The position numbers were made by a program, and so were the translations under genes. A model generated the notes under the pieces. The model ran no database searches and was not told the origin of the DNA. It worked only from the letters and a program-made list of their open reading frames with translations. From the NCBI GenBank assembly GCA_023664685.1, contig JAMPFC010000004.1:1233-65232 (forward strand): a stretch of 64,000 bases of DNA, written 5' to 3'. This stretch comes from Roseburia sp. (GTDB lineage: Bacteria; Bacillota; Clostridia; Lachnospirales; Lachnospiraceae). Below are positions 31,821-31,900 of this stretch, one piece after another. How positions within the stretch are numbered: position 1 is the stretch's first letter; each line of letters begins with the position of its first letter.

Positions 31821-31876
31821 ATCTGCTCTCCTCATCAATAATGCTTCTAATTTTTATATTTTACCACCTTGTGTTT

Positions 31877-31900
31877 CAAAAACTTTTCCGTTTTTTTCAC
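31877..31900 (-). promoter_or_regulatory. Copy D of the conserved island promoter motif (upstream of essC)
   Basis: + strand CAAAAACTTTTCCGTTTTTTTCAC; coding strand GTGAAAAAAACGGAAAAGTTTTTG. It lies 20 nt upstream of the extended -10 TGgTAAAAT (hexamer at 31858..31863). Confidence 0.6.

What the first reader, a model, noticed from the sequence alone, without database searches (positions are those of the whole stretch)
31858..31900. A ~24-nt motif at a fixed distance from a -10 box recurs four times and links the T7SS operon to three surface or cell-wall protein units
**The four copies (+ strand).**
- A, 7339..7360: cAGAATTTTTCCGTTTTTTTCAG
- B, 11769..11791: GAAAAGTTTTCCGTTTCTTTCAC
- C, 16713..16734: GAAAATTTTCCGTTTTTTTCAC
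- D, 31877..31900: CAAAAACTTTTCCGTTTTTTTCAC

**Reading on the coding (minus) strand.** Each copy is GTGAAA(A/G)AAACGGAAAA(n)TTTTC. That gives two direct GAAAA half-sites about 9 nt apart plus an inverted TTTTC. The ACGGAAAA core ends 19-21 nt upstream of a -10-like hexamer: GATAAG, TATACT, TGgTATTAT and TGgTAAAAT respectively. No recognisable TTGACA -35 is present.

**Genes behind the copies.** These are the Big_2 surface protein, the 462-aa protein plus LRR protein, the CHAP hydrolase, and essC.

**Interpretation.** An activator site overlapping the -35 position, or an alternative sigma -35 element, would explain this architecture. Either would define a regulon that combines secretion machinery with wall-associated proteins. 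I found no full copy elsewhere in the 64 kb.
Basis: seen in the sequence. Interest (0 to 1): 0.8.

Follow-up and report, generated by a model that had tools for sequence, protein, structure and literature searches.

The report
Shared promoter motif linking T7SS, adhesins
A 17-base DNA signal set at a fixed distance upstream of the -10 box marks four promoters in this gut Lachnospiraceae chromosome and matching promoters in at least five related species, which ties a type VII secretion system, Ser/Thr-kinase genes and cell-surface proteins into one undescribed co-regulated gene set whose regulator is still unknown.

Summary
GTGAAA(A/G)AAACGGAAAA occurs four times on the minus strand. Each copy is intergenic and lies 20-21 nt upstream of a sigma-A-type -10 box (TGnTAnnnT in three of four). 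No usable -35 is present. A PWM scan scores the four sites 33-38 bits and the next best hit 14 bits, which is shuffle level.

The decisive evidence is comparative. The same motif, with the same spacing to an extended -10, lies upstream of essC in a Roseburia-like species (EssC N-terminus 60% identical, flanks unrelated). It also lies downstream of the hybrid-kinase orthologue in a Butyribacter MAG, at five promoters of that MAG's surface-protein cluster, and in four further Lachnospiraceae loci. None of 120 chance matches from other prokaryotes has the full motif plus TG-extended -10 pattern.

The best reading is a binding site centred near -41 for a dedicated activator of a sigma-A promoter class. 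The regulon would be T7SS plus kinases plus surface proteins. An alternative-sigma -35 is disfavoured by geometry and by the sigma-A-like -10.

The regulator is not identified. The 462-aa protein behind copy B belongs to an uncharacterised family that always sits beside a Ser/Thr kinase and usually near the motif. No DNA-binding domain could be shown in it.

The parts
31884..31900 (-). Motif copy D (GTGAAAAAAACGGAAAA), predicted to span about -50 to -34 of the essC/T7SS operon promoter.
   Evidence: (38.5 bits). The orthologous motif lies upstream of essC in L122-L126. In L113 it lies just after the hybrid-HK orthologue.
31858..31866 (-). Extended -10 of promoter D (TGgTAAAAT). The predicted transcription start is near 31851.
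   Evidence: The hexamer starts 20 nt after the motif.
16775..31820 (-). T7SSb operon driven by D: essC (FHA-FtsK, 27270-31820), YukD, five WXG100-like genes, an LXG-like gene of 436 aa, DUF4176, a 765-aa Ser/Thr kinase, a 232-aa gene, PP2C and a 504-aa Ser/Thr kinase.
   Evidence: Pfam scans. All genes are co-directional with short gaps. Operon extent is inferred.
16718..16734 (-). Motif copy C (GTGAAAAAAACGGAAAA).
   Evidence: (38.3 bits).
16691..16699 (-). Extended -10 of promoter C (TGgTATTAT). The predicted transcription start is near 16684.
   Evidence: The hexamer starts 21 nt after the motif.
14987..16651 (-). Gene for a 554-aa secreted protein with CHAP, GBS_Bsp-like and fn3 domains, behind copy C.
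11775..11791 (-). Motif copy B (GTGAAAGAAACGGAAAA), 13 nt after the stop codon of the PASTA kinase gene.
   Evidence: (32.6 bits).
11749..11754 (-). -10 hexamer of promoter B (TATACT, no TG extension). The predicted transcription start is near 11742.
   Evidence: The hexamer starts 20 nt after the motif.
10310..11698 (-). The 462-aa all-helical protein ('p462'), a member of an uncharacterised kinase-linked family. It is a candidate for the trans-acting factor, but this is unproven.
   Evidence: - No match in Pfam, NCBIfam or the PDB.
- The structure models are confident: pLDDT 86 for the full length and 91 for the N-terminal part. Neither has a structural neighbour.
- The family has 137 clusters at 90% identity and 922 representatives.
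- A kinase gene is adjacent or in the same gene string in 8 of 8 species.
7377..10291 (-). Two LRR_5 (BspA-type) surface-protein genes, probably co-transcribed with p462 from promoter B.
   Evidence: LRR_5 genes also flank p462 homologues in L130, L133 and L135, and an LRR-repeat gene does in L134.
7344..7360 (-). Motif copy A (CTGAAAAAAACGGAAAA).
   Evidence: (35.1 bits). The spacer CTGGGACTA is shared with the L127 copy.
7317..7325 (-). Extended -10 of promoter A (TGaTAAGAT). The predicted transcription start is near 7310.
   Evidence: The hexamer starts 21 nt after the motif.
4055..7270 (-). Gene for a large Big_2 surface protein behind copy A. The likely start is the ATG at 7270, preceded by GGAGG.
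11804..13552 (-). PASTA-domain Ser/Thr kinase gene directly upstream of copy B and p462. It is the conserved partner of the p462 family.
   Evidence: plus the contexts.
32066..34819 (-). Hybrid histidine kinase (HisKA-HATPase-REC-Hpt) and a receiver-only protein directly upstream of promoter D. Neither has a DNA-binding output domain. They are context, and possibly an input pathway.
   Evidence: The HK orthologue (48% identity) lies in the same position relative to the motif in L113.

Best explanation
**What it is.** The motif is the recognition site of a dedicated transcription activator in a special class of sigma-A promoters. These promoters have a good, usually TG-extended -10 box but no -35 hexamer. 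In place of the -35 they carry the asymmetric element GTGAAAA-AAA-CGGAAA(A/G), which reads as two xxGAAAA heptads 10 bp apart.

**Geometry.** The element ends 20-21 bp upstream of the -10 hexamer. It therefore covers about -50 to -34 and is centred near -41. An activator bound there would touch RNA polymerase (sigma region 4 and/or the alpha subunit) and substitute for the missing -35 contact.

**Regulon.** All units that carry the site would be switched on together:
- the T7SSb operon, including its own Ser/Thr kinases and PP2C phosphatase;
- a PASTA-kinase/462-aa-protein module;
- secreted or wall-bound proteins (Big_2, LRR_5, CHAP, and in relatives cohesin, dockerin and M23 proteins).

**Shown versus inferred.**
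- Shown: the element, its fixed geometry, its restriction to these promoters, and its conservation across species.
- Inferred: that it activates rather than represses, that sigma-A is the sigma factor used, that Ser/Thr-kinase signalling is the input, and that the 462-aa family might be the binding protein.
For: 1. There are four exact copies. All are intergenic and all have the same orientation relative to the downstream gene. They score 33-38 bits against 14 bits for the next best hit.
2. Phylogenetic footprint. In L122-L126 the EssC N-terminus is 60% identical, the genomic neighbourhood differs and the flanks cannot be aligned. GTGAAAAAAACGGAAAGA followed by N16 and TGaTAAGCT still lies about 90 bp upstream of essC, with a second copy 264 bp further upstream.
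3. In the Butyribacter MAG GCA_045542435.1 the motif follows the hybrid-HK orthologue as it does in the window (L113). Five more copies head the PASTA kinase, p462 homologue, Big_2, cohesin and M23/dockerin genes (L130).
4. Further copies occur in L127-L129, L133, L134 and L135, beside p462 homologues of 35-63% identity.
5. Geometry across the 14 distinct sites listed:
   - the core-to-hexamer distance is 22 nt in 11 sites and 21 nt in 3;
   - 13 of 14 carry the TG extension;
   - the -10 hexamers are TAnnnT in 13 of 14.
6. The composite pattern with the TG extension is found in none of the 120 chance-match loci from all prokaryotes. L113 misses the strict pattern only because its hexamer is TAGAAG. 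In IMG/VR the pattern occurs once, inside a coding region.
7. Information content is highest at the invariant CGG. This argues for base-specific protein recognition rather than mere AT-richness.
8. No canonical -35/-10 pair lies on the coding strand in regions A, B or C. D has only one marginal 9/12 match, TTGAAA-N18-AAAAAT.
Against: - There is no TSS mapping, expression data or binding assay. The -10 assignments and all position numbers are predictions.
- No DNA-binding protein is identified. Neither the window nor the related loci encode an obvious cognate regulator.
- The site is short and asymmetric, which is unusual for dimeric class II activators.
- Its A7 tract lies where an UP-element proximal subsite would lie, so part of the effect might need no dedicated factor.
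- One T7SS locus whose kinase is 71% identical (L138) has no motif in 22 kb.
- One p462 locus (L136) has no motif, and another (L131) has only a variant.
- Activation rather than repression is inferred only from the missing -35 and the rigid spacing.
Confidence: 0.55

Rival explanations
1. The motif is a repressor operator. It binds a repressor that occludes RNA polymerase at promoters which otherwise run on their extended -10 alone. The regulon is then co-repressed and released by a signal.
For: - TG-extended -10 promoters can work without a -35 (general knowledge), so an activator is not strictly needed.
- The layout of two heptads separated by 3 bp resembles the CtsR repressor operator (from memory).
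- The conservation data do not distinguish the sign of regulation.
Against: - Spacing to the -10 is held to within 1 bp in all 14 listed sites across six species. That rigidity is typical of elements that contact RNA polymerase and is not needed for occlusion.
- The site lies upstream of the region that polymerase needs at a promoter lacking a -35.
- Promoter B has no TG extension and a weak hexamer, so it probably needs help.
Confidence: 0.13
2. The motif is the -35 element of an alternative sigma factor, and the promoters are read by a holoenzyme other than sigma-A.
For: - A conserved asymmetric upstream element with rigid spacing to a downstream element is how sigma-specific promoters look.
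- The canonical -35 is absent.
- The full-length p462 model gave a non-significant hit to T. thermophilus sigma-A (4mq9_F, E 2.5).
Against: - The conserved block ends 20-21 nt from the -10 hexamer. The 6 nt at the normal 17-nt spacing are not conserved.
- The -10 is a textbook sigma-A extended -10, TGnTAnnnT, in 13 of the 14 listed sites.
- No Sigma70_r2 or r4 domain was found in any protein of the window or the related loci, including 40 p462 members scanned up to E = 10.
Confidence: 0.1
3. There is no dedicated factor. The element is an UP-element-like A-tract with intrinsic DNA curvature that recruits the alpha C-terminal domain to promoters lacking a -35. Its similarity between units reflects duplication of a strong promoter cassette.
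For: - The A7 run sits at about -49 to -43, and AAAAAAACG matches 8 of 9 positions of the E. coli proximal subsite consensus AAAAAARNR (consensus from memory, positions).
- Surface proteins and secretion systems often have strong promoters.
Against: - The most conserved positions are C-G-G, which an alpha-CTD minor-groove contact does not require.
- The element is absent from housekeeping promoters in the window, such as those of dnaA, gyrB and the pur genes.
- It is confined to one functional set of genes in six species.
- Spacer and flanks differ completely between copies, so the copies are not recent cassette duplications.
Confidence: 0.08
4. The motif is not a transcription signal. It is a chance AT-rich repeat or a recombination or phase-variation site shared by surface-protein genes.
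For: - The bare 17-mer is common by chance.
Against: - Four copies in 64 kb against a shuffle-level background.
- Orientation, intergenic position and coupling to the -10 are conserved across species.
- No recombinase gene lies nearby, and all copies are direct rather than inverted.
Confidence: 0.02

Closest known systems
Class II activator-dependent promoters (CRP/FNR at -41.5; PhoB at pho boxes)
   Same: - A good -10 box, often TG-extended.
- A missing or poor -35 hexamer.
- An activator site that abuts or overlaps the -35 position with rigid phasing.
- As in the pho box, the element reads as two 7-bp direct repeats separated by 3-4 A/T bases (here GTGAAAA-AAA-CGGAAAA).
   Different: - The sequence is unrelated to the CRP, FNR, PhoB or PhoP sites as I recall them.
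- The repeat period is 10 bp rather than 11.
- No winged-helix response regulator or CRP-family gene is linked.
- The only receiver proteins nearby lack DNA-binding domains.
- Activation itself is not demonstrated.
IreK (PASTA Ser/Thr kinase) plus GntR-family OG1RF_11099 control of the Enterococcus faecalis T7SS (PMC7790226; review PMC13492133)
   Same: - A T7SSb whose transcription depends on a PASTA-type Ser/Thr kinase pathway and a dedicated positive regulator encoded next to the system.
- Here PASTA and other Ser/Thr kinase genes are the invariable neighbours of the motif-bearing units.
   Different: - No GntR-family gene is present.
- No operator sequence was noted for the enterococcal system in the passages of these two papers that I read.
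- Here the regulon extends to surface adhesins and wall hydrolases.
- The kinases here are extra paralogues inside the regulated units.
- The kinase link is gene neighbourhood only.
Other described T7SSb regulators: DegU/Spo0A at the B. subtilis yfj operon; SigB, ArlRS, SpoVG and SarA in S. aureus (as reviewed in PMC13492133)
   Same: They are transcriptional control of T7SSb operons in Bacillota.
   Different: - These are global regulators with different binding sites.
- None defines a compact promoter class that lacks a -35 and is shared with adhesin genes.
- I found nothing described for Lachnospiraceae.
UP element (alpha-CTD binding site, -40 to -60)
   Same: An A-tract at about -49 to -43, directly upstream of the -35 position.
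   Different: - The invariant CGG core.
- Restriction to one gene set.
- Absence from housekeeping promoters.
CtsR operator (heptad-N3-heptad direct repeat, GGTCAAA-NAN-GGTCAAA; recalled from memory)
   Same: The same 7-3-7 direct-repeat layout, bound by a dimeric winged-helix protein in Bacillota.
   Different: - Different half-site sequence.
- CtsR is a repressor of clp and heat-shock genes.
- The target genes here are unrelated.

Membership tests
Class II (-35-replacing) activator-dependent sigma-A promoter | A recognisable -10 box, often TG-extended, with no functional -35 hexamer at 16-18 bp. | tested here: met
   - TGnTAnnnT in 3 of 4 window copies and in 13 of the 14 listed sites overall.
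- The consensus scan finds no -35/-10 pair on the coding strand in A, B or C, and only one marginal 9/12 match in D.
Class II (-35-replacing) activator-dependent sigma-A promoter | A conserved protein-binding site centred near -41, with fixed helical phasing to the -10. | tested here: met
   - The motif ends 20-21 nt before the hexamer in all four window copies.
- The core-to-hexamer distance is 21-22 nt in all 14 listed sites.
- Position numbers assume a start 7 nt after the hexamer, and the TSS is not mapped.
Class II (-35-replacing) activator-dependent sigma-A promoter | Transcription depends on a DNA-binding activator that contacts RNA polymerase. | not testable with these tools
   This needs reporter, EMSA or in vitro transcription experiments. 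No binder has been identified.
Alternative sigma factor promoter | -35 and -10 elements separated by about 15-19 bp, with both differing from the sigma-A consensus. | tested here: not met
   The conserved block ends 20-21 nt from the hexamer. The -10 is a standard extended sigma-A box.
Alternative sigma factor promoter | A cognate sigma (Sigma70_r2/r4) gene linked to or co-occurring with the regulon. | tested here: not met
   No sigma domain was found in window proteins or in the called genes of 10 related loci. The rest of each genome could not be examined.
UP element | An A/T-rich sequence at -40 to -60 with no requirement for specific G/C bases. | tested here: not met
   The A7 tract is in the right place, but the highest information content is at the invariant C-G-G, about 2.3 bits per position.
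OmpR/PhoB-type tandem direct-repeat site | Two 6-7 bp direct repeats with a 10-11 bp period at the -35 position. | tested here: met
   GTGAAAA-AAA-CGGAAAA has a 10-bp period and the second heptad is nearly invariant. This is a resemblance of form only.
OmpR/PhoB-type tandem direct-repeat site | A cognate response regulator with a winged-helix (Trans_reg_C) output domain linked to the regulon. | tested here: not met
   - The window has only a receiver-only protein and a hybrid HK.
- The one Trans_reg_C regulator seen (L137, 19770-20447) belongs to the neighbouring pst/phoU cluster.
XRE-type HTH / RNPP-like regulator (as a filing for the 462-aa protein) | A sequence match to HTH_3, HTH_19 or HTH_31 or related models. 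| tested here: not met
   - No Pfam family is shared by more than 3 of 40 members even at E = 10.
- NCBIfam gives nothing.
- Profile searches against the PDB give nothing.
- hhalign against four classical XRE domains gives probability 6.5%.
- Only a by-eye resemblance remains: 'LPTIRKWFG...PSREQVFRIAFSLKL'.
XRE-type HTH / RNPP-like regulator (as a filing for the 462-aa protein) | Structural similarity of the N-terminal domain to HTH repressors. | tested here: inconclusive
   The N-terminal model is confident (pLDDT 91). Its best PDB neighbour is the SaPI Stl repressor 7p4a_A at E 1.0, probability 0.30. Rgg2 appears at E 8.
IreK/GntR-type control of T7SSb (E. faecalis) | A PASTA Ser/Thr kinase functionally linked to T7SS transcription. 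| tested here: inconclusive
   Kinase genes are adjacent to motif-bearing units in every species examined. Function was not tested.
IreK/GntR-type control of T7SSb (E. faecalis) | A GntR-family regulator encoded next to the T7SS cluster. | tested here: not met
   No GntR domain is present in the window or in L122-L126/L137.

The most novel reading that the evidence does not exclude
The 462-aa protein family has about 900 representatives in gut Clostridia, no detectable relative of known function, and a confident all-helical model without a structural neighbour. It may be a new class of transcription activator switched by its adjacent Hanks-type or PASTA Ser/Thr kinase. It would bind the asymmetric GTGAAAAAAACGGAAAA site at -41 and couple cell-envelope sensing to joint expression of the type VII secretion system and surface adhesins in Lachnospiraceae. 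One observation fits co-evolution of protein and site: the locus of one distant homologue (L131, 36% identity) carries a changed site, GAAAAAAT(C/A)TGAAAGA, at the same distance from the -10.
Probability: 0.3. Interest if true: 0.75.

Novelty: new member of a known kind. Interest (0 to 1): 0.6.

Why it matters
**Gap it addresses.** Regulation of T7SSb is poorly understood outside a few pathogens. I found nothing about it for the abundant gut Lachnospiraceae.

**What the signature offers.** A compact, conserved promoter signature gives a direct handle.
- It predicts which genes are expressed together with the secretion system: LRR and Big_2 adhesins, a CHAP hydrolase, and cohesin/dockerin proteins.
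- It points to Ser/Thr-kinase signalling as the likely input.
- It supplies a 45-bp bait for isolating the regulator.
- It could serve as an inducible promoter part for these hard-to-engineer bacteria.

**If the kinase-linked 462-aa family is the binder.** That would add a new family of DNA-binding regulators.

Tried and rejected
1. **Genome-collection scan.** I scanned genome contigs with TGAAANAAACGGAAAANTT. The pattern was too unspecific. Only L113 proved relevant.
2. **Exact-protein look-ups of window proteins**. The source genome is nearly absent from the collection. Only one 3.9-kb contig was found.
3. **Tests of the 462-aa protein as a DNA binder.** All were negative or non-significant:
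   - Pfam, including 40 members scanned up to E = 10;
   - NCBIfam;
   - PDB profile searches with the full length and with the N-terminal region;
   - hhalign against XRE domains;
   - Foldseek of the full-length and N-terminal models against the PDB and BFVD;
   - Pfam on remote family members.
4. **Rfam on the short transcription unit in L123**. No family matched.
5. **IMG/VR scan for the composite promoter**. It returned one coding chance hit, so there is no phage link.
6. **Locus L138** (kinase 71% identical). It has a different T7SS gene order and no motif, so the motif is not universal for T7SS clusters with these kinases.
7. **Comparison with known binding sites, from memory only.** I compared the motif with CcpA cre, CodY, Spo0A, Rex, ComK, PhoP/WalR, LytTR repeats, sigma-H, ECF, sigma-I and TcdR promoters. 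None fits. Only CtsR shares the 7-3-7 layout, with a different sequence.
8. **Literature.** A sequence-string search and searches for T7SS with Lachnospiraceae or Roseburia returned nothing relevant.
9. **Recombination or phase-variation site.** Rejected because all copies are direct, no recombinase gene is present, and the motif is coupled to the -10.
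Full report
**1. The observation**

On the minus strand the window carries four copies of GTGAAA(A/G)AAACGGAAAA. 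Copy A begins CTG.
- A: 7344-7360
- B: 11775-11791
- C: 16718-16734
- D: 31884-31900

The 15-mer GAAANAAACGGAAAA has four exact matches. With up to two mismatches it has 11 matches against 2.25 expected, and no shuffle out of 100 reaches 11. A 26-nt weight matrix built from 14 sites in six species scores the four copies 32.6-38.5 bits. The next best position in the window scores 13.9 bits. Shuffled windows reach at most 15.9 bits. There are therefore exactly four sites and no weak halo.

Each copy is intergenic and points toward a minus-strand gene.
- A: a Big_2 protein.
- B: a 462-aa protein without any Pfam match, then two LRR_5 genes.
- C: a CHAP/GBS_Bsp protein.
- D: essC (FHA-FtsK), then YukD, WXG100 genes, an LXG-like gene, DUF4176, two Ser/Thr kinases and a PP2C phosphatase.

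The window lies next to the replication origin. parAB, dnaA, dnaN and the gyrase genes are present, and the GC skew switches near 54 kb.

**2. Promoter anatomy**

The -10 elements downstream of each copy are as follows.
- A: TGaTAAGAT
- B: TATACT
- C: TGgTATTAT
- D: TGgTAAAAT

The hexamer starts 21, 20, 21 and 20 nt after the last A of the motif.

A consensus scan finds no TTGACA-type -35 with a 16-18 nt spacer on the coding strand in A, B or C. D has only one marginal 9/12 match.

If transcription starts about 7 nt after the hexamer, the motif covers about -50 to -34 and is centred near -41.

The element reads as two heptads 10 bp apart, GTGAAAA-AAA-CGGAAAA. The second heptad is the more conserved. 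Information content peaks at C-G-G.

I do not count it as core.

**3. Related sequences: the T7SS promoter**

The window's own genome is almost absent from the collections. Relatives are present.

I searched metagenomes with the EssC N-terminus. This returned five human-gut loci, L122-L126, with 60% identity. A later kinase hit names this species Roseburia sp. AM59-24XD or a close relative.
- The T7SS island there sits in a different neighbourhood, inside a pst/phoU cluster, and the flanks cannot be aligned.
- GTGAAAAAAACGGAAAGA followed by N16 and TGaTAAGCT still lies about 90 bp upstream of essC.
- A second copy lies 264 bp further upstream, followed by N16 and TGgTAGAAT.

In the Butyribacter MAG GCA_045542435.1 the motif follows the orthologue of the hybrid histidine kinase (48% identity), as it does in the window (L113).

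**4. Related sequences: the 462-aa protein ('p462')**

The protein behind copy B defines an uncharacterised family.
- It has 137 clusters at 90% identity. All are hypothetical proteins, and the few that are named come from Lachnospiraceae-type organisms.
- It has 922 representatives at E <= 1e-3 in the 50%-clustered library.

I recovered its context in seven further species. In all eight, counting the window, a Hanks-type Ser/Thr kinase gene (often with PASTA domains) is adjacent or in the same gene string. The neighbours are mostly surface proteins: LRR_5, Big_2, DUF6273, cohesin, dockerin and CHAP.

The motif recurs in these loci.
- L130, from the same Butyribacter MAG, has five copies. They head the PASTA kinase, the p462 homologue, a Big_2 gene, a cohesin gene and an M23/dockerin gene.
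- L127-L129 have one copy directly after the p462 homologue.
- L133 has one copy directly upstream of the p462 homologue.
- L134 has one copy upstream of an LRR gene.
- L135 has one copy upstream of a LytTR-domain gene.
- L131 (homologue 36% identical) has no canonical copy. It has GAAAAAAT(C/A)TGAAAGA twice, each 20 nt from a -10 hexamer.
- L136 (32% identical) has none.

**5. Specificity of the full architecture**

These figures are for the 14 distinct sites listed.
- The distance from the core AAACGGAAA to the hexamer is 22 nt in 11 sites and 21 nt in 3.
- Thirteen sites carry the TG extension.

The composite pattern with the TG extension occurs in none of the 120 loci returned by my unspecific whole-collection scan. 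That scan was otherwise wasted. The exception in spirit is L113, whose hexamer is TAGAAG. IMG/VR holds a single hit, and it lies inside a coding region.

One T7SS locus has a 71%-identical kinase but a different gene order (L138). It has no motif. The element therefore marks a lineage-specific regulon, not every T7SS of this type.

**6. Mechanism**

The features are:
- a sigma-A-type extended -10;
- no -35;
- a base-specifically conserved element;
- rigid spacing to the -10;
- restriction to one functional gene set in several species.

Together these are what a dedicated activator site at a class II-type promoter looks like. This is my best explanation (0.55).

Rivals:
- **Repressor operator (0.13).** It cannot be excluded, but it does not explain the rigid spacing or the weak promoter B.
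- **Alternative-sigma -35 (0.10).** It fits poorly. The block is 20-21 nt from the hexamer, the -10 is ordinary, and no sigma gene is linked.
- **Pure UP element (0.08).** It does not explain the invariant CGG or the absence from housekeeping promoters.
- **Chance or recombination site (0.02).** It is effectively excluded.

**7. The trans factor**

The factor is not identified. The hybrid kinase and the receiver-only protein upstream of essC have no DNA-binding output domain.

p462 is the obvious candidate by neighbourhood, and the L131 variant hints at co-variation of protein and site. By eye, residues about 70-105 (LPTIRKWFG...PSREQVFRIAFSLKL) recall an XRE-type helix-turn-helix. Every formal test failed.
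- Pfam at E = 10 on 40 members.
- NCBIfam.
- PDB profile searches.
- hhalign against four XRE domains, probability 6.5%.
- Foldseek with confident models: full length pLDDT 86 and pTM 0.81, N-terminal part pLDDT 91. Nothing fell below E = 0.5. The best N-terminal neighbour is the SaPI Stl repressor at E 1.0.

I give p462 as the binder a probability of about 0.3. What the data do show is a tight association of p462 with Ser/Thr kinases and with the motif.

**8. Comparison with what is known**

The closest mechanistic analogues are class II CRP/FNR-type promoters and PhoB pho-box promoters. The closest biological analogue is the control of the E. faecalis T7SS by the PASTA kinase IreK plus the GntR-family regulator OG1RF_11099 (PMC7790226; reviewed in PMC13492133). 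No GntR gene is present here.

The other T7SSb regulators covered in that review are DegU/Spo0A, and SigB, ArlRS, SpoVG and SarA. Literature searches found nothing on T7SS regulation in Lachnospiraceae or Roseburia, and nothing for the motif string.

I file the finding as a new member of a known kind, namely an activator-type promoter element that defines a regulon. A more novel possibility stays open: that the kinase-linked 462-aa family is a new kind of regulator.

**9. Verdict**

- Supported: the regulon and the promoter-element reading.
- Favoured: an activator over a sigma factor.
- Unidentified: the binding protein.

Interest is 0.6.

Noticed in passing
L123:9642-9856 (same in L122, L124-L126): In the Roseburia-like species a second motif copy with TGgTAGAAT drives a unit of about 160 nt. 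The unit has no plausible ORF and ends in a strong intrinsic terminator. It folds at -47 kcal/mol (z = -4.0), and the terminator stem shows compensatory changes between L122 and L123. There is no Rfam match and no counterpart in the window. It is a candidate small RNA belonging to the same regulon.
   Followed up: partly
window 2649-3863 (-), 13698-14972 (+), 34851-36059 (-); also L134:15105-16424: Three paralogous AAA_14/DUF4143 ATPase genes are scattered among the motif-bearing units. Another lies beside a p462 locus in a different species. The gene at 13698-14972 is the only sizeable plus-strand gene with a Pfam match inside the otherwise minus-strand gene array spanning about 4-36 kb. Their function and any link to the regulon are unknown.
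   Followed up: no
window 16775-22152 and 27270-31820: The T7SS operon encodes two full-length Ser/Thr kinases (765 and 504 aa) and a PP2C phosphatase, beside an FHA-bearing EssC. Pfam detected no EssB, EsaA or EssA. The Roseburia-like island has three kinases and a PP2C (L137). The kinases may take the place of the EssB pseudokinase or regulate EssC through its FHA domains.
   Followed up: no
window 10310-10360 (C-terminus of the 462-aa protein): The family has a conserved extreme C-terminus, '...CFQExEMYxYxDVLE'. It contains a YxxxD pattern reminiscent of the YxxxD/E export signal of actinobacterial T7SS substrates. This could mean the protein is a T7SS client or adaptor rather than a regulator. 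The resemblance is by eye only.
   Followed up: no
window 32066-34819; L113:580-2602; L136:12745-17689: A hybrid histidine kinase with Hpt and receiver-only proteins sits directly upstream of the essC promoter in the window. The same arrangement holds in the Butyribacter MAG. A similar phosphorelay (a 1031-aa hybrid HK, a REC-Hpt protein and a REC protein) lies next to the p462/kinase pair in L136. None has a DNA-binding output domain.
   Followed up: partly
window 31912-31928 (-); L130:134-151: A degenerate second copy (GTGAAAAAAGTACTGAA) lies 28 bp upstream of copy D. In L130 a weak copy (15 bits) lies 30 bp upstream of the copy at the PASTA-kinase promoter. These may be auxiliary upstream sites at some promoters.
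   Followed up: no
L123:3470-5443 and L137:14131-21884: In the Roseburia-like species the whole T7SS island is inserted between parts of a phosphate-transport cluster: pstS/pstC-like genes on one side, and pstA/pstB/phoU genes plus a PhoP/PhoR-like pair on the other. This fits the island being mobile or recently acquired.
   Followed up: no
window 44200-45949, 52944-61500: The window spans the chromosomal origin region. parB and parA are on the minus strand, dnaA, dnaN, gyrB and gyrA are on the plus strand, and the cumulative GC skew has its minimum near 54 kb. The T7SS and surface-protein array therefore lies within about 50 kb of oriC, co-oriented with replication.
   Followed up: no
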